Source of the DNA: a virus
Taxonomy: Duplodnaviria; Heunggongvirae; Uroviricota; Caudoviricetes
Reading direction: 5' to 3' (one strand)
Virus record (IMG/VR): IMGVR_UViG_3300026549_000070
Length of the DNA: 10,975 nucleotides
Position numbers and translations under genes: made by a program. Below are positions 929-6,629 of this stretch, piece after piece. Position 1 is the first letter of the stretch. Each line of letters begins with the position of its first letter. The notes below the pieces were generated by a model. It had not been told where the DNA came from. It did not search any database and saw only the letters and a program-made list of their open reading frames with translations.

Positions 929-1003
929 GTTAGGCATAAGTTGTTCCTATTACGCCGATGAGGCACTACACTGTTAATGTATGTTTGCTACAGCTCGCCA
1001 ATG
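929..1003 (+). ncRNA. Y-RNA-like element 1 enclosing a tRNA-Asn(GTT)-type anticodon arm
   Basis: GGC-ATAA-GTTGT (933-944) pairs with ACAGC-TC-GCC (990-999); inside are GCC-GATGA-GGC and TACA-CTGTTAA-TGTA; no T-arm. Confidence 0.45.
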
Positions 1004-1226: not shown

Positions 1227-1233
1227 TTTTGTT

Positions 1234-1315
1234 CGGTCAGTGGTGGAACTGGTATTCACTTCCGGCTTAAGACCGGACGCCGTAAGGATTGAGAGTTCGA
1301 ATCTCTCCTGGCCGA
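1234..1315 (+). tRNA. trnL: tRNA-Leu(TAA)
   Basis: CGGTCAG/CTGGCCG acceptor; TCCGG-CTTAAGA-CCGGA; long variable arm; GAGAG-TTCGAAT-CTCTC. Confidence 0.92.
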
Positions 1316-1366
1316 TTAAAACTCTTACAGTTTTTGCAACTGTACTAACTAAATATTGAAAATAAT

Positions 1367-3071: not shown

Positions 3072-3074
3072 TAT

Positions 3075-3161
3075 GGGCGTGTTACCATAGCTTGGCCGAA
3101 TGGGGCAGACTCTTAATCTGCTGACGAAAGTCCACCGGAGGTTCAAATCCTCTCACGCTCA
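3075..3161 (+). tRNA. trnK: tRNA-Lys(CTT) with long variable arm
   Basis: GGGCGTG/CACGCTC; GCAGA-CTCTTAA-TCTGC; variable arm GAC-GAAA-GTC. Confidence 0.85.
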
Positions 3162-3168
3162 TTATTTT

Positions 3169-3252
3169 GTGCTCGTGATAGCAGAGTGGGATTGCGCCAA
3201 ACTTTTAATTTGGAGTCGAAAGACAGACCGAGTTCGATTCTCGGCGGGCACA
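3169..3252 (+). tRNA. trnK: tRNA-Lys(TTT) with long variable arm
   Basis: GTGCTCG/CGGGCAC; CCAAA-CTTTTAA-TTTGG; variable arm GTC-GAAA-GAC. Confidence 0.85.
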
Positions 3253-3282: not shown

Positions 3283-3650
3283 TTGGCATTTCTAGGGTTA
3301 TGAGTTCAACAAATGATGTGAATTATGTGTTGTTCCATAACGCTTTGTTTCAAGCTTGCGCCTGATTTGAAAGACAAGGGAAACACGAGAGATTGTTGTA
3401 CCAAGTGTACAATAATTAAGGAAACGTCTAATACACGCTATCCTTCTCAAACAACTGACAGAACCTGATACACTTAGAGGCATTAAAGTTTTGAACTCGT
3501 CAAGCAAAACTGCTGCTCAAAGGATGATGAAGCCCGTGTCCCACATGCAGGTCAAATAATGGTGATACACAGTAGCCACTCAACTTCATCAGTGAAAAGG
3601 ATCCCGCCGAGTAGGACGTTCGATACAGATTCTTAGTACTGTGAAACATA
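3283..3650 (+). ncRNA. ~370-nt structured RNA candidate containing a 21-codon ORF (3300-3365); family unassigned
   Basis: Preceded by TTGTTAATAT (3257); helices 3343-3379, 3396-3412, 3487-3511, 3526-3590; crossing pair CACAGTA/TACTGTG (3568-3574/3637-3643). Confidence 0.5.
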
Positions 3651-3651
3651 T

Positions 3652-3724
3652 GCAGATGTAGCTCAATTGGCAGAGCACGGGTCCTCCAAACCTGAGGTTG
3701 AGGCTTCGAACGCCTTCATCTGCT
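3652..3724 (+). tRNA. trnG: tRNA-Gly(TCC), atypical (C33; C53:G61)
   Basis: GCAGATG/CATCTGC; CGGGT-CCTCCAA-ACCTG; U73. Confidence 0.8.
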
Positions 3725-3726
3725 CT

Positions 3727-3792
3727 AAGGCAAAAGTTAATCTTAGATATTCAAGTCCTGATGTGAACTGATATTTAAGACTAACAATGTCG
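3727..3792 (+). ncRNA. Y-RNA-like element 2 (simple long hairpin)
   Basis: GGC-AAAA-GTTA (3729-3739) pairs with TAAC-AAT-GTC (3782-3791); TCTTAGATAT/ATATTTAAGA inside. Confidence 0.4.
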
Positions 3793-3808
3793 AAAGAAGC
3801 TAATTATT

Positions 3809-4246
3809 ATGAAGAATATATTATTATTTATTTGGCAGTTACCACAAAATATCATAGGATTGCTTATAATGCTAGTTAACTTTAAGAGCGTTACTATGGA
3901 TAAGTCCAAAAAATGTTTTAGAGTAAAACACTTATGTGATTGTGGGATATCTTTAGGTAATTATATAATTATCGACTCAGATGTTAACTGTAAATATCAG
4001 ACCATTTGTCACGAACAAGGCCATCAAAAGCAAAGTCAAATGTTCGGTTGGCTGTATTTAGTCTTGTTTGGACTACCATCTATATGTGGAAATATTATTG
4101 ACAGAGTTTTCCATAAAAATTGGAAGTTATCAAAAAGACTATATTGGTATTATAATTTGCCTTGGGAAAAAAGCGCAAACAAACTTGGCGGCGTGCACGA
4201 AATATATATGGGTCAAGTTGAACACTTAGAAAGATTTAATTACTAA
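3809..4246 (+). CDS. Hypothetical membrane-associated protein with HExxH motif (possible zincin-like peptidase)
   Basis: Hydrophobic N-terminus IWQLPQNIIGLL; HEQGH; hydrophobic segment GWLYLVLFGL. Confidence 0.75.
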   Translation: MKNILLFIWQLPQNIIGLLIMLVNFKSVTMDKSKKCFRVKHLCDCGISLGNYIIIDSDVNCKYQTICHEQGHQKQSQMFGWLYLVLFGLPSICGNIIDRVFHKNWKLSKRLYWYYNLPWEKSANKLGGVHEIYMGQVEHLERFNY

Positions 4247-4273
4247 TGTGTATATAGTAATTATCAATATTAT

Positions 4274-4393
4274 ATAGGCAAAAGTTGTTCCTATTATCGT
4301 AAGTGGGTTCGACTCCCACCATCAGGATTTCCTGATGAGGTGAAACGGTGACACACGAGACTTAAAATCTTGCACCATTTACAACAGGCCTAT
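4274..4393 (+). ncRNA. Circularly permuted tRNA-Leu(TAA) inside a Y-RNA-like closing stem (element 3)
   Basis: T-arm 4303-4319, acceptor 3' strand CATCAGG 4320-4326, A-TTT, acceptor 5' strand CCTGATG 4331-4337, D-arm, CGAGA-CTTAAAA-TCTTG 4356-4372; flanks pair ATAGGC/GCCTAT and GTTGT/ACAAC. Confidence 0.75.
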
Positions 4394-4398
4394 TTTAT

Positions 4399-4478
4399 GC
4401 AAGTGTAGCCAGTCCTGTCTACGAAACAGGTATCTGTAGTTGGAGCTGTAAACGCAGGTTCGATTCCTGTCACTTGCA
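4399..4478 (+). tRNA. tRNA-Arg(ACG)-like lacking a D-arm, with a 23-nt variable region
   Basis: GCAAGTG/CACTTGC; only TAGCCAGT before CCTGT-CTACGAA-ACAGG; T-arm GCAGG-TTCGATT-CCTGT. Confidence 0.75.
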
Positions 4479-4484
4479 CTTCTT

Positions 4485-4569
4485 GGTTAGATGCGCGAGT
4501 GGTTGATGCGGCTTCCCTGCTAAGGAAGAGTACCTTCGGGTATCGCGGGTTCGAATCCCGCTCTAACCG
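4485..4569 (+). tRNA. trnS: tRNA-Ser(GCT)
   Basis: GGTTAGA/TCTAACC; CTTCC-CTGCTAA-GGAAG; variable arm TACC-TTCG-GGTA; G73. Confidence 0.93.
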
Positions 4570-4579
4570 CTTCCGTCAT

Positions 4580-4605
4580 AGGTTGCTTTTTAGCAACCTT
4601 TTTTT
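4580..4605 (+). terminator. Intrinsic terminator ending the tRNA array
   Basis: AGGTTGCT-TTTT-AGCAACCT followed by a T-run. Confidence 0.85.
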
Positions 4606-4619
4606 GTTAATATCCAACT

Positions 4620-5186
4620 ATGGATAAAAACACAATTATTGTAAATCTTTTCGCTGGCCCAGGCGCAGGAAAATCTACAGGCGCCGCTTATGTTTTTGCA
4701 AAACTTAAACTTGCGGGAATTGATTGTGAATATGTTTCTGAGTTTGCAAAAGACAAAGTTTGGGAAAACAACTCTGAAGTTTTCAAAAATCAATTTTACA
4801 TTACAGGTAAACAGTCATTCAAAATAAGTAGATGCTTTGGTAAAGTCGATGTAATCATTACCGACAGTCCAATTGCTCTTGGTGCATTGTACGCAAAAGA
4901 AGATCAGCCGATGTTAAAAGCTGCTTCACTTGAAGAGTTTGAAAGATACCATCGTAACAACTTCAACTTTGTTATCAATCGCGTGAAGCCTTATAATCCT
5001 AACGGAAGAAATCAAACAGAAGACGAGGCTAAAGAAATAGATGGAAAAACATCCAAGTTTCTCGAATCCCACAAAATCCCGTTTGTTGTCGTTAATGGCA
5101 ACGAAAAAGGATATGATGAAATTGTCAGAATTGTAAAAGACGGACTGAAGTTCGACTATGAAAAGAATCATCCACTTTTTGCATAA
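4620..5186 (+). CDS. P-loop NTPase/kinase (NadR/Ttd14-like AAA family)
   Basis: Walker A AGPGAGKS after hydrophobic strand IIVNLF; EFAKD; VIITDSP. Confidence 0.8.
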   Translation: MDKNTIIVNLFAGPGAGKSTGAAYVFAKLKLAGIDCEYVSEFAKDKVWENNSEVFKNQFYITGKQSFKISRCFGKVDVIITDSPIALGALYAKEDQPMLKAASLEEFERYHRNNFNFVINRVKPYNPNGRNQTEDEAKEIDGKTSKFLESHKIPFVVVNGNEKGYDEIVRIVKDGLKFDYEKNHPLFA

Positions 5187-5240: not shown

Positions 5241-6629
5241 TTGACAAAGCAGGAAATTATCAAAAAAGTTATTACACCTATCGAAAATGCTGGTTTCAAG
5301 GCCTACTTTGTCGGCGGTTGCGTTCGTGATGAACTGACTGGAAGAACTCCTCACGACTATGATATTTCAACAAATGCAACACCTGATGAGATCAACAAAA
5401 TCTTTGGTGTTACAGAAACAAGAAAAGCAAATTTGTACGGAGTTGCAATGCCAATCATCAATGGTGAACAGATTGAAATTGCAACTTGGCGTTCAGACCT
5501 GACAAGAGGCCGCCATCCGACAATCAAGTTTTCAAACAAAATTGAAGACGATGCTTTCCGCAGAGACTTTACAGTAAACTCTCTGTATGAAGACAAAGAT
5601 GGAAACATTATCGACCCAACAGGTTGTGGCATTGCTGACATCAAATCAAACACATTAAGTTTTGTTGGAAACGCAGTTGACCGCATCACTGAAGACCCTT
5701 TAAGAATCTTCCGATATGTTCGCTTTGTTGCTTCAAAAGGTTTCAAGGCAAATGAAAATGATGTTGCTGCAATCGAGGCACACATCAACAAAATAACACC
5801 TGAGGTTGCTTTTGCTGATGTTTCTGTTGAAAGACAGTGTGCTGAGTTAATCAAAACTTTTGGCAGCAAAGACTTCACAATGGAAGTTTTTGAAATTATG
5901 AGAAGAATGGGTATCTTCGATGCAATTCATTTAACTGAGATTTTTGAAGATATGAAAACTTGTGAGCAGAATCCAAAATGGCACAGTGAAGGAAATGTTT
6001 TCAACCACACAATGCTGGTTGTGAAAGCAGCAGTTGCTCGTGCTCCTAAAATTGAAAATGAAATTGATCGTTTCGTTTTCATTATGGGTGCAATTCTGCA
6101 CGACTGTGGAAAACCTGCTTCAGGCCGCAAAAACGGCTTAAGCAAGAATGGTTTCCCTGCAGTTAAAGATCACGCAGAAGTTGGTGCTCCTATTGCTTTC
6201 AAGTTCCTGAGAGACTTAAGGTTAGATTGTGCAACTGCTCATCGTATTGAAGGCTTAGTTGCAAATCATATGAAGATGCATCAGTTAGGTCTGCTGGACA
6301 AAAAGTTTGCAATTATGAGCATTCTGAATCTGCCTGACTTCAACTTACTGTGCGAACTGTGCAGAAGCGACAGTGACGGTTGTATCAAAACTGCAGCTGA
6401 CGATGAAGAGATGCCTTTAGACGAAGCTCTGGCTTCTCCAAAAATTGCAAGCTTAATTGGTCAGCCAATTCCTGCACCTATTGTAACTGGTGATGATCTG
6501 ATTGCTTTAGGTTTCAAGCCAAGCGAAAAGTTCCGCAAGGCTCTAGAAGTTGCCCATAAAGATCAGGTAAACAACGGAAAAACTGATAAGGCAATTCTGA
6601 TTGCAAACATTAAAAATATGTTAAAGTAG
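5241..6629 (+). CDS. cca: tRNA nucleotidyltransferase (class II CCA-adding enzyme) with HD domain
   Basis: YFVGGCVRDEL..DYD; RRDFTVN; EDPLRIFR; HD region WHSEGNVFNHT..LHDCGK; TTG start with GGAGG RBS. Confidence 0.92.
   Translation: MTKQEIIKKVITPIENAGFKAYFVGGCVRDELTGRTPHDYDISTNATPDEINKIFGVTETRKANLYGVAMPIINGEQIEIATWRSDLTRGRHPTIKFSNKIEDDAFRRDFTVNSLYEDKDGNIIDPTGCGIADIKSNTLSFVGNAVDRITEDPLRIFRYVRFVASKGFKANENDVAAIEAHINKITPEVAFADVSVERQCAELIKTFGSKDFTMEVFEIMRRMGIFDAIHLTEIFEDMKTCEQNPKWHSEGNVFNHTMLVVKAAVARAPKIENEIDRFVFIMGAILHDCGKPASGRKNGLSKNGFPAVKDHAEVGAPIAFKFLRDLRLDCATAHRIEGLVANHMKMHQLGLLDKKFAIMSILNLPDFNLLCELCRSDSDGCIKTAADDEEMPLDEALASPKIASLIGQPIPAPIVTGDDLIALGFKPSEKFRKALEVAHKDQVNNGKTDKAILIANIKNMLK

What the first reader, a model, noticed from the sequence alone, without database searches (positions are those of the whole stretch)
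4274..4393. Complete circularly permuted tRNA-Leu(UAA), opened at the variable arm
Seen: the 3' half (T-arm, CATCAGG, A73) precedes the 5' half (CCTGATG, D-arm, intact CT-TAA-AA anticodon arm). The perfect 7-bp acceptor stem is therefore capped by a 4-nt loop (ATTT). The flanks pair with each other (ATAGGC/GCCTAT, GTTGT/ACAAC), closing the molecule where the variable arm would be. Established: permuted tRNA genes are known from some algae and an archaeon. Bacterial YrlA Y RNAs carry a T arm/loop-capped acceptor/D arm module, but there the anticodon arm is replaced by the Ro60-binding stem. Inference: either a Y RNA variant retaining a full anticodon arm (uncharged tRNA mimic or nuclease decoy), or a precursor cut in the acceptor loop and CCA-tailed into a two-piece or re-ligated tRNA. 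A normal Leu(TAA) gene exists at 1234, so decoding is probably not its only role.
Basis: partly seen in the sequence, partly recalled or inferred. Interest (0 to 1): 0.85.

Follow-up and report, generated by a model that had tools for sequence, protein, structure and literature searches.

The report
Scaffolded, rearranged tRNA mimic in giant phage
A giant cattle-gut phage carries a conserved small RNA gene that is a complete leucine-type tRNA written in swapped order with its acceptor end sealed by a loop; it sits on a short stem-and-motif handle shared by dozens of other tRNA-part RNAs in uncultured giant phages, so it is most likely a tRNA look-alike, not a working tRNA.

Summary
Window 4274-4393 holds, in order, a T arm, a perfect 7-bp acceptor stem capped by AUUU, a D arm and a closed anticodon arm (CU-UAA-AA). 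ARAGORN calls the de-permuted sequence tRNA-Leu(UAA).

It is not an assembly artefact. Identical copies occur in independent assemblies. Diverged orthologues keep every helix through compensatory changes (11 pairs changed on both sides, 0/500 shuffles).

The pairing flanks are not a variable arm. They are a conserved handle: P1, ANA/C internal loop, P2 GUUGU/ACAAC, then UCCUAUU. I found this handle on 42 distinct RNAs in 29 contigs, mostly tRNA clusters of uncultured phages. Its cargo ranges from small hairpins, through T arm plus capped acceptor plus D arm (YrlA-like), to whole tRNAs.

A covariance model built without this element finds it at 53 bits (E 5e-9). Rfam lists no such family, and YrlA scores 18.5 bits against a cut-off of 69. 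No Ro60 gene was found.

Orthologues carry UAA, GAA or UGA anticodons and an A or G discriminator, and one caps the acceptor with GAAA. Ordinary Leu(UAA) and Phe(GAA) genes sit in the same clusters. All this argues against decoding.

Best reading: a non-decoding tRNA mimic on a new handle.

The scan has noted YrlA-like mimics in many phages before. A sequence look-up with this element and its sibling E1 found the scaffold only in this window.

The parts
4274..4279 (+). P1, 5' strand (ATAGGC) of the outer closing stem
   Evidence: Pairs with 4388-4393. The P1 position covaries across 42 family members and in the E3-type alignment. RNAalifold predicts it on siblings.
4280..4282 (+). 5' side of the asymmetric internal loop (AAA; family consensus A-N-A)
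   Evidence: Family counts: ATA 19, AAA 16, ACA 6, AGA 1.
4283..4288 (+). P2, 5' strand (A-GTTGT)
   Evidence: GTTGT pairs with ACAAC at 4381-4385. The first pair is A.A here, but AU, GC, GU or UA in 39 of 42 relatives. P2 itself covaries in divergent members found by the model: GAGGT/ACTTC, GGTGT/ACACC, ATTGT/ACAAT.
4289..4295 (+). Conserved unpaired motif TCCTATT
   Evidence: Present in 38 of 42 elements, with near variants in the other 4. This is partly by ascertainment, because the search pattern held TCCTA.
4296..4302 (+). Linker ATCGTAA. TCGT (4297-4300) could pair with ACGA (4355-4358) as an alternative helix.
   Evidence: Conserved in the L052 orthologue. The alternative fold is -29.7 kcal/mol against -32.2 for the cloverleaf.
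4303..4319 (+). T arm (GTGGG TTCGACT CCCAC)
   Evidence: (matches the T arms of the tmRNA and YrlA models).
4320..4337 (+). Acceptor stem as a capped hairpin: CATCAGG, then A73 plus TTT, then CCTGATG
   Evidence: 100% paired in 5 orthologues, with 4 of 7 pairs changed on both sides.
4338..4355 (+). A8, G9, type-II-like D arm (GTG AAACGGTGA CAC), A26
   Evidence: The middle D-stem pair U-A becomes C-G in L052. L052 and L124 have U8.
4356..4372 (+). Closed anticodon arm CGAGA CTTAAAA TCTTG (anticodon TAA at 4363-4365)
   Evidence: The stem is identical in all full-length orthologues. The anticodon is TAA, GAA or TGA.
4373..4380 (+). 3' linker CACCATTT
   Evidence: The family has a U-rich run before P2.
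4381..4393 (+). P2 3' strand (ACAAC-A), loop G4387 (C in 39 of 42 relatives), P1 3' strand (GCCTAT)
933..999 (+). Sibling element E1: same handle, cargo is a small hairpin plus an Asn(GUU)-type anticodon stem-loop
   Evidence: Model R1 scores it 28.2 bits, E 0.0014. Orthologues with the same cargo are in L001, L052, L087 and L124.
3729..3791 (+). Sibling element E2: degenerate handle with a plain hairpin
   Evidence: Absent from L001. Not found by R1 at E <= 1.
1233..1316 (+). Ordinary tRNA-Leu(UAA) gene of the same cluster
4399..4570 (+). Downstream tRNA-like gene (Arg ACG, aberrant) and tRNA-Ser(GCT). The first starts 5 nt after P1, so RNase P cutting there would make the 3' end of the element.
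   Evidence: The RNase P step is inference.
4580..4599 (+). Terminator-like hairpin plus T run, closing the transcription unit
   Evidence: RNA-library contigs of three runs stop at 4575-4611. This is a weak hint.
5241..6629 (+). Phage CCA-adding enzyme (PolyA_pol head plus HD domain)

Best explanation
The element is a genuine, selectively maintained small RNA gene. It is transcribed with the neighbouring tRNAs of an uncultured giant phage of the cattle gut or rumen.

It is one member of a previously unlisted family of modular phage RNAs. The constant part is a handle: closing stem P1, a 3-nt/1-nt internal loop, P2 GUUGU/ACAAC, and an unpaired UCCUAUU. The variable part is a cargo made of tRNA pieces.

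Here the cargo is a whole Leu-type cloverleaf in permuted order.
- The acceptor end is sealed by a 4-nt loop, so the primary transcript has no free 3' end to charge.
- The handle leaves where the variable arm would be.

Most likely (inferred, not shown) the handle is a binding or stabilising module. The cargo then presents a tRNA-shaped surface (elbow, acceptor helix, anticodon loop) to a tRNA-binding factor. That could be as a decoy for a host tRNA-targeting enzyme, or as a tether, in the way YrlA Y RNAs work with Ro60. It does not act as a decoder.
For: Reality and selection
- Identical copies occur in independent assemblies.
- Identity to strain variants is 97-98%. The flanking ORFs are 91-96% identical, and the next two tRNA genes are replaced.
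- All substitutions among close orthologues fall in unpaired positions.
- The distant orthologue L052 and the partial L124 keep all helices. 92.6% of cells are paired, 11 pairs changed on both sides, 0/500 shuffles reach this, and slid controls give 37-50% paired.

Family
- 42 distinct elements in 29 loci share the handle.
- 38 of 42 unselected candidates have a P1 run of at least 4 pairs, against 1 of 42 when the partner strand is slid by one base.
- RNAalifold on 11 siblings, without this element, predicts P1, P2, the T arm and the acceptor hairpin. 15 of 24 pairs are compensated.
- The model built from those siblings hits 4270-4396 full length at 53.4 bits, E 5e-9.
- It also finds divergent members with compensated P2, including two more in this phage's own contig.

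Mimic rather than decoder
- Siblings lack an anticodon loop altogether.
- Acceptor caps are GAAA or UUCG-like loops in siblings and in L052.
- The anticodon is UAA, GAA or UGA, and the discriminator A or G, among orthologues.
- Position 8 is A here.
- A standard Leu(UAA) gene sits in this cluster. Standard Leu(UAA) and Phe(GAA) genes sit in the cluster of L001, whose copy reads GAA.

Expression (weak)
- Contigs from bovine-gut metatranscriptome libraries span the element exactly and end near the terminator.
Against: - No partner protein was identified, and no TROVE/Ro60 was found.
- The function of the handle is unknown.
- A perfect 7-bp acceptor stem is the feature that lets RNase P cut M. 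smegmatis YrlA, which is then CCA-tailed in vivo (PMC4201824). This RNA may therefore not stay capped.
- The anticodon arm is canonical: a 5-bp stem and a 7-nt loop with U33 and A37. Its stem is the best-conserved cargo part. That would also fit a decoding role.
- Two family members hold normal-order tRNA-like cargo ending in CCA. The handle can therefore also flank things that look like real tRNA precursors.
- RNA-library contigs do not prove transcription.
- Family ascertainment relied on an exact 10-nt motif.
Confidence: 0.68

Rival explanations
1. True permuted tRNA gene. RNase P cuts before C4331, the 3' side is trimmed to A4327 and CCA-tailed by the phage enzyme encoded downstream. The two pieces, held by the acceptor stem, P1/P2 and tertiary contacts, or sealed into one chain by a phage RNA ligase, then act as a tRNA on the ribosome.
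For: - The cloverleaf is complete, with a canonical anticodon loop, G18G19, a T loop and a 7-bp acceptor.
- The de-permuted orthologues are all called as tRNAs.
- A CCA-adding enzyme is encoded 850 nt downstream, and a T4 Rnl1-type ligase lies upstream.
- Normal-order tRNA-like cargo occurs on the same handle.
Against: - The anticodon and discriminator change among near-identical orthologues on an unchanged Leu-type body.
- L052 has a GAAA cap, and this lineage has A8.
- It is redundant with standard tRNAs in the same clusters.
- Most siblings on the same handle cannot decode.
- There is no bulge-helix-bulge motif, and no known bacterial pathway for circularising such a precursor (established knowledge).
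- No join across 4393 to 4274 appeared in the RNA contigs laid, but contigs are uninformative on this.
Confidence: 0.12
2. Cis-acting cassette. The handle is a processing, termination or stability signal of phage tRNA operons. The tRNA-like cargo is incidental and has no function of its own in trans.
For: - Elements sit immediately before tRNA genes or between ORFs, and P1 is often followed by or made of a U run.
- Cargo is highly variable, and some cargo is trivial AU-rich hairpins.
- The handle also flanks normal-order tRNA-like genes.
Against: - Cargo is itself conserved and compensated: the acceptor and D stems of this element, and the Asn-type stem-loop of E1 across distant phages.
- The P1/P2 helices are too short and interrupted for RNase III (inference).
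- The scan lists no terminator-like site at the element. The only one in 3600-4700 is at 4580-4599.
Confidence: 0.15
3. Decaying relic. It is the junction of two tandem tRNA-Leu genes that lost their outer halves, with no function.
For: Tandem duplication followed by loss of the outer halves is the standard route to permuted order. tRNA genes in this cluster lie 1-10 nt apart.
Against: - It is conserved above its surroundings, helices carry compensatory changes, and it belongs to a covarying family.
- No parental tRNA of this sequence is in any fetched locus.
Confidence: 0.03

Closest known systems
YrlA (Y RNA-like A; Rfam RF02553), the tRNA-mimicking Y RNAs of bacteria and some phages, partners of Ro60/Rsr (Chen et al. 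2014, PMC4201824)
   Same: - Modular design: a closing stem with an internal loop carries a tRNA-like domain in the order T arm, loop-capped acceptor stem, D arm.
- It sits among RNA-repair and tRNA genes.
- The M. smegmatis member also has a 7-bp acceptor stem.
   Different: - The score is 18.5 bits against a cut-off of 69.
- The handle sequence and internal loop differ.
- This element keeps a closed anticodon arm, and the handle leaves at the variable-region position rather than through the anticodon stem.
- No TROVE/Ro60 gene was found nearby, or in a complete genome that carries the same handle.
Circularly permuted tRNA genes of Cyanidioschyzon merolae and other algae, and of Thermofilum pendens
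   Same: The 3' half (T arm, 3' acceptor strand) precedes the 5' half (5' acceptor strand, D arm, anticodon arm) with a short spacer. The flanks pair.
   Different: - Those have a bulge-helix-bulge at the flank pairing, cut by the splicing endonuclease and ligated to a circle. That motif is absent here, and the enzyme is absent from bacteria by established knowledge.
- Their anticodons are fixed and they are the only gene for that tRNA. Here the anticodon varies and standard copies exist.
Phage 'stem plus UACAGCAA' small RNAs beside a Ro60-shaped protein (Felix O1-type phages; Bas63 gp130, PMC11482910). This rests on earlier notes of this scan, which are unpublished AI notes.
   Same: - Arrays of small RNAs hidden in phage tRNA clusters share one stem-plus-motif handle.
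- Some of them carry permuted tRNA-like cargo.
- The 3' strand here (UUUACAAC, or CUACAGC in E1) resembles UACAGC.
   Different: - I did not compare sequences directly.
- No Ro60-shaped or vWA gene was found next to these elements.
- The 634-aa orphan at the head of the region has a helical N-terminal part and an all-beta C-terminal part, and Foldseek found no Ro60 match.
Two-piece (permuted) tmRNA of alpha-proteobacteria and cyanobacteria
   Same: The gene order is permuted, with T arm and 3' acceptor strand before the 5' acceptor strand. The precursor loop is removed without ligation.
   Different: There is no tag reading frame and no G3:U70. ARAGORN finds no tmRNA, and the Rfam tmRNA hit covers the T arm only.

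Membership tests
YrlA (RF02553) | Covariance-model score at or above the gathering score (69 bits) | tested here: not met
   18.5 bits, E 0.085-0.99.
YrlA (RF02553) | tRNA-like domain in the order T arm, loop-capped acceptor stem, D arm | tested here: met
YrlA (RF02553) | Anticodon stem continues into the Ro60-binding stem, with no anticodon loop | tested here: not met
   A closed 5-bp/7-nt anticodon arm lies at 4356-4372, and the handle leaves from the variable region. Siblings such as L034, L041 and L055 do meet this feature.
YrlA (RF02553) | Ro60/Rsr (TROVE) gene adjacent or in the genome | tested here: inconclusive
   No TROVE or vWA hit is on record among called genes over about 30 kb of the phage's own contig. 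TROVE is absent from 5 scaffold-bearing viral records, including a complete 424-kb one. The rest of this phage's genome could not be searched.
tRNA (RF00005) / functional tRNA gene | Contiguous cloverleaf recognised by tRNA finders | tested here: not met
   ARAGORN finds nothing. Rfam gives 22.3 bits (below 29) on the 5' half only.
Permuted tRNA gene | The de-permuted sequence is a complete tRNA | tested here: met
   ARAGORN calls tRNA-Leu(taa). Orthologues are called Phe(gaa) and Ser(tga).
Permuted tRNA gene | Flanks form the processing motif (bulge-helix-bulge) that allows circularisation | tested here: not met
   The flanks form P1, a 3x1 internal loop and a 6-bp P2. There are not two 3-nt bulges 4 bp apart.
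Permuted tRNA gene | Acceptor-loop excision, CCA addition, aminoacylation | not testable with these tools
   Only contigs of RNA libraries could be laid, and these show no ends.
Permuted tRNA gene | Anticodon and identity elements conserved among orthologues | tested here: not met
   Anticodons UAA, GAA and UGA; position 73 is A or G.
   53.4 bits, E 5e-9, model positions 1-130.
   All are present. There are two deviations shared by the window, L001 and L126: N-N' is A.A, and the 3' loop nucleotide is G instead of C.
Two-piece tmRNA | Tag reading frame and alanine identity (G3:U70) | tested here: not met
   ARAGORN finds no tmRNA. Pair 3:70 is U-A.

The most novel reading that the evidence does not exclude
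RNase P cuts the RNA in its 4-nt acceptor loop. The phage enzyme encoded 850 nt downstream adds CCA. The RNA then works as a two-piece, or ligase-sealed, tRNA whose 'variable arm' is the handle. Strains carry UAA, GAA or UGA anticodons on one Leu-type body, and bacterial LeuRS does not read the anticodon. The RNA would therefore be a phage-encoded missense or recoding tRNA, and the first permuted tRNA gene outside algae and archaea.
Probability: 0.08. Interest if true: 0.95.

Novelty: new variant of a known kind. Interest (0 to 1): 0.64.

Why it matters
tRNA-mimicking Y RNAs are so far tied to Ro60. Here the same design principle, a constant handle plus a tRNA-shaped cargo, appears on a different, strongly covarying handle.
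- At least 29 contigs carry it, most of them uncultured gut or rumen phages, often several per tRNA cluster.
- No Ro60 gene was found.
- The cargo spans a graded series: anticodon stem-loop only, T arm only, T arm plus acceptor, T arm plus acceptor plus D arm, a full permuted cloverleaf, and a normal-order tRNA.

That points to an unrecognised class of phage RNAs that display tRNA parts. They would plausibly act in the conflict over host tRNA-targeting defences. A simple sequence and structure signature finds them.

This particular member is the extreme case, a complete tRNA turned inside out. It is also the natural substrate for asking whether bacteria or phages can mature permuted tRNAs.

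Tried and rejected
- Own genome and L001's 259-kb record are not held, so Ro60, RtcB and the like could not be searched genome-wide.
- Exact-sequence scans for the acceptor hairpin in IMG/VR found only the one orthologous contig plus chance matches.
- blastn of the region and of E1 against cultured phages found no relatives, only a tRNA-Ser match and one chance match.
- Pfam, PHROGs and PDB-sequence searches of the unassigned neighbouring proteins found no RNA-binding family. Queries were the 145, 271, 146, 355, 395, 199, 269 and 634 aa proteins.
- ORF clustering over 35 scaffold-bearing loci gave only two recurring groups. One was homing-endonuclease-like genes. The other was syntenic genes of one phage lineage: a 199-aa SprT-like gene, a 395-aa orphan and a 661-aa hydrolase-like gene. 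None is convincing as a partner.
- vWA searches gave a weak C-terminal vWA in a 574-aa protein of one related contig. It lies 30 kb from the RNA and is not in the other records.
- The 634-aa orphan upstream of Rnl1 was folded (pLDDT 82). It has a helical N-terminal part and an all-beta C-terminal part. PDB Foldseek matches have TM about 0.1, which is noise, and none is Ro60.
- Felix O1: the half of the genome I fetched has no tRNAs, so the comparison with its small RNAs was not made.
- In the genome-contig scan, 3 of 5 matches were chance (no P1). Two real members lie in contigs binned to a Treponema MAG, which is a weak host hint only.
- RNAfold alone mispairs the T arm.
- MAFFT misaligns the 3' handle when E3-type and shorter-cargo members are mixed.
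- The tandem-relic hypothesis is rejected (see rival explanations).
- K-turn and tetraloop-receptor readings of the handle were considered from the sequence and dropped, because the defining G.A pairs and the UAUGG partner are absent.

Full report
**1. What is there**

Window 4274-4393 reads, 5' to 3', as follows.
- P1 strand ATAGGC.
- AAA.
- A-GTTGT (P2 strand).
- TCCTATT.
- Linker ATCGTAA.
- T arm GTGGG-TTCGACT-CCCAC.
- Acceptor 3' strand CATCAGG.
- A73.
- TTT.
- Acceptor 5' strand CCTGATG.
- A8 and G9.
- D arm GTG-AAACGGTGA-CAC.
- A26.
- Anticodon arm CGAGA-CTTAAAA-TCTTG.
- Linker CACCATTT.
- ACAAC-A, then G, then GCCTAT.

ARAGORN and Rfam's tRNA model do not call the native sequence. The only hits are a 22.3-bit partial tRNA match and an 18.5-bit YrlA match, far below its 69-bit cut-off. 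After de-permutation ARAGORN calls tRNA-Leu(taa). The element folds far better than shuffles (z = -3.76). An ordinary tRNA-Leu(UAA) lies at 1233-1316.

**2. Setting**

The window is the end of a 159,946-bp ENA metagenome contig. It belongs to an uncultured giant phage.
- The window holds 17 tRNA genes.
- It encodes a CCA-adding enzyme with an HD domain (5241-6629), a Nudix enzyme, a GNAT and a lytic transglycosylase.
- Upstream lie more tRNAs, homing-endonuclease-like genes and a T4 Rnl1-type RNA ligase.
- Holders of the sequence are mostly bovine- and pig-gut metagenomes.

**3. Real, not an artefact**

- The identical element with both junctions is in an independently assembled JGI contig (L016).
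- A 259-kb IMG/VR contig (L001) and a rumen contig (L126) carry it at 97-98% identity.
- For comparison, the adjacent AAA_28 ORF is 91-93% identical, the CCA enzyme gene is 96%, and the two downstream tRNA genes are largely replaced.
- The only differences inside the element are A73 to G, U34 to G, and one linker base. All are unpaired.
- L124, cut by a contig end, changes acceptor pair 2:71 from C-G to U-A and has U8.
- L052, from a 295-kb contig, changes five of the seven acceptor pairs, the middle D-stem pair and the P1 pairs, and caps the acceptor with GAAA. It keeps the T arm, and the anticodon stem is letter for letter the same. Its anticodon is UGA.

On the five-sequence alignment the named structure has 92.6% of cells paired. 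11 pairs are changed on both sides, and 0 of 500 shuffles reach this. Slid controls give 37-50% paired.

Contigs from two bovine-gut metatranscriptome runs of one sample cover the element exactly. RNA-library contigs of three runs stop at 4575-4611, next to a terminator-like hairpin at 4580-4599. This is only a weak sign of transcription, because DNA can be present in such libraries.

**4. The flanks are a family-wide handle**

I confirmed this for E1 (933-999), E2 (3729-3791) and this element.

Pattern scans brought in many more:
- the shared 5' motif in IMG/VR;
- JGI/ENA metagenomes;
- species genomes.

After de-duplication there are 42 distinct elements in 29 loci. Their common plan has five parts.
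- P1 of 4-8 bp.
- A 5' loop A-N-A opposite a single 3' C.
- P2, which is N-GUUGU pairing with ACAAC-N'.
- An unpaired UCCUAUU.
- After the cargo, a U-rich run before P2.

P1 covaries freely. Its third pair is GC 13, AU 15, CG 8, UA 4 and GU 2. The N-N' pair is AU 24, GC 8, GU 4, UA 3 and AA 3.

Without any pairing requirement, 38 of 42 candidates have at least 4 consecutive P1 pairs. When the partner strand is slid by one base, only 1 of 42 does.

RNAalifold on 11 siblings, excluding this element, predicts P1, P2, the T arm and the acceptor hairpin. 15 of 24 pairs are compensated.

A covariance model from that alignment (R1) finds window 4270-4396 over its full length at 53.4 bits, E 5e-9, and E1 at 28.2 bits. 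It also finds divergent members whose P2 is compensated (GAGGU/ACUUC, GGUGU/ACACC, AUUGU/ACAAU). Two of these are further copies in this phage's own contig.

Rfam 15 has nothing for the handle, and cultured phages gave no match. In this lineage the handle is slightly off consensus: the N-N' pair is A.A, and the loop nucleotide is G instead of C.

**5. Cargo series**

On the same handle I saw these cargo types.
- AU-rich hairpins.
- Anticodon-stem-loop look-alikes. E1 and its orthologues in distant contigs carry CUGUUAA (Asn-type). Another member carries CUUUUAA (Lys-type).
- T arm alone.
- T arm plus a capped 7-8-bp acceptor stem.
- T arm plus capped acceptor plus D arm. This is the YrlA order, and the handle continues from a short helix at the anticodon-stem position.
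- This element and its orthologues, which add a closed anticodon arm, so that the handle leaves from the variable-region position.
- Two elements whose cargo is a normal-order tRNA-like sequence ending in CCA. One scores 40.6 bits with Rfam's tRNA model but has G33.

Acceptor caps in siblings include GAAA and UUCG-containing loops. These look like structural caps, not processing spacers.

**6. Decoder or mimic?**

For a decoder:
- the cloverleaf is canonical, including a perfect anticodon loop;
- a 7-bp acceptor stem is the feature that lets RNase P cut M. smegmatis YrlA, which is then CCA-tailed in vivo (PMC4201824);
- the phage encodes a CCA enzyme and RNA ligases.

Against a decoder:
- three different anticodons (UAA, GAA, UGA) and both A and G at position 73 sit on one Leu-type body, two of them in near-identical strains;
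- this lineage has A8;
- L052 has a GAAA cap;
- a standard Leu(UAA) gene lies in this cluster, and standard Leu(UAA) and Phe(GAA) genes lie in L001's cluster, whose copy reads GAA;
- most siblings cannot decode.

I therefore put about 0.68 on a non-decoding mimic and about 0.12 on a matured tRNA.

The anticodon stem is the most conserved cargo part, so the anticodon arm itself probably matters. The 5' linker TCGT can alternatively pair with ACGA at the start of that stem (-29.7 against -32.2 kcal/mol). This reproduces the siblings' closing helix, so a conformational switch is possible.

**7. Partner and mechanism**

Nothing here identifies what the handle binds.
- No TROVE or vWA hit is on record among called genes in about 30 kb of the phage's own contig.
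- TROVE is absent from five scaffold-bearing viral records, including a complete 424-kb genome.
- vWA hits are sporadic.
- The 634-aa orphan at the head of the region is not Ro60-like.

The mechanism I commit to is by analogy with Y RNAs, and by the graded tRNA-part cargo. The handle binds or stabilises, and the cargo offers a tRNA-shaped surface to a tRNA-binding factor. The likeliest role is as a decoy in the conflict over tRNA-targeting host defences, which jumbo phages are known to counter with tRNAs and RNA repair (PMC7824862). These steps are inferred, not shown.

**8. Known or new**

tRNA-mimicking Y RNAs, including ones in phages, are known (PMC4201824). A Ro60-like phage protein next to tRNA genes has been proposed to use some of them (PMC11482910). 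Permuted tRNA genes are known only from algae and one archaeon, and a literature search found none for bacteriophages.

This scan has repeatedly noted YrlA-like mimics in phages. A look-up by sequence with this element and with E1 returned only this window. I class the element as a new variant of a known kind.

Noticed in passing
window 4399-4478: A tRNA-like gene with a good acceptor stem, T arm and Arg(ACG) anticodon arm. The D arm is reduced to about 5 nt, and about 20 extra nt follow the anticodon arm. Rfam gives 35.5 bits and ARAGORN finds nothing. The orthologous position in L001 (5170-5246) holds a normal tRNA-Arg(ACG).
   Followed up: partly
window 3074-3162 and 3179-3244: Two odd Lys-anticodon tRNA-like genes (CUU and UUU) with long variable arms. 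The second lacks a recognisable acceptor stem (Rfam model positions 8-63 only). L001 has three ordinary tRNA-Lys genes in this stretch.
   Followed up: no
window 933-999 (E1); also L052:3120-3198, L087:2150-2226(-), L124:2846-2924(-): Handle RNA whose cargo is a small hairpin plus an Asn(GUU)-type anticodon stem-loop (CUACA CUGUUAA UGUAU). It is conserved almost letter for letter in distant phage contigs. A Treponema-MAG copy has CUUGUAA instead.
   Followed up: partly
L055:5179-5316(-) and L148:3221-3354(-): The same handle flanks a normal-order tRNA-like sequence ending in CCA. The first scores 40.6 bits as tRNA but has G33 and an acceptor mismatch. The handle is therefore not restricted to permuted cargo.
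   Followed up: partly
L150:6937-6997 and L150:7766-7831 (this phage's own contig, about 12-13 kb upstream of the window): Two more small-cargo handle RNAs lie between protein genes, outside the tRNA cluster. One has a compensated P2 (GAGGU/ACUUC). The other ends about 20 nt before the 634-aa orphan gene.
   Followed up: partly
L032:3600-3784, and L085, L111, L114, L116: A larger handle RNA with two T arms and an internal second GTTCCTATTT motif. It recurs in several giant-phage contigs, including a complete 424-kb genome.
   Followed up: no
L150:7852-9756: A 634-aa protein with no Pfam hit and more than 1,100 relatives in large phage contigs. The confident model (pLDDT 82) has a helical N-terminal part and an all-beta C-terminal part, with no meaningful PDB match.
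   Followed up: partly
window 3646-4276 against L001 4871-5046: The segment with tRNA-Gly(UCC), E2 and the 145-aa ORF is replaced in the sister phage by tRNA-Met and tRNA-Gly genes. The breakpoint lies exactly at the 5' edge of the permuted element.
   Followed up: no
L145 and L148 (contigs binned to an uncultured Treponema MAG): Handle RNAs, five in L148, lie amid 12 tRNA genes in 8 kb. This is probably a phage contig binned with, or integrated in, a Treponema genome. It is a weak hint at the host.
   Followed up: no
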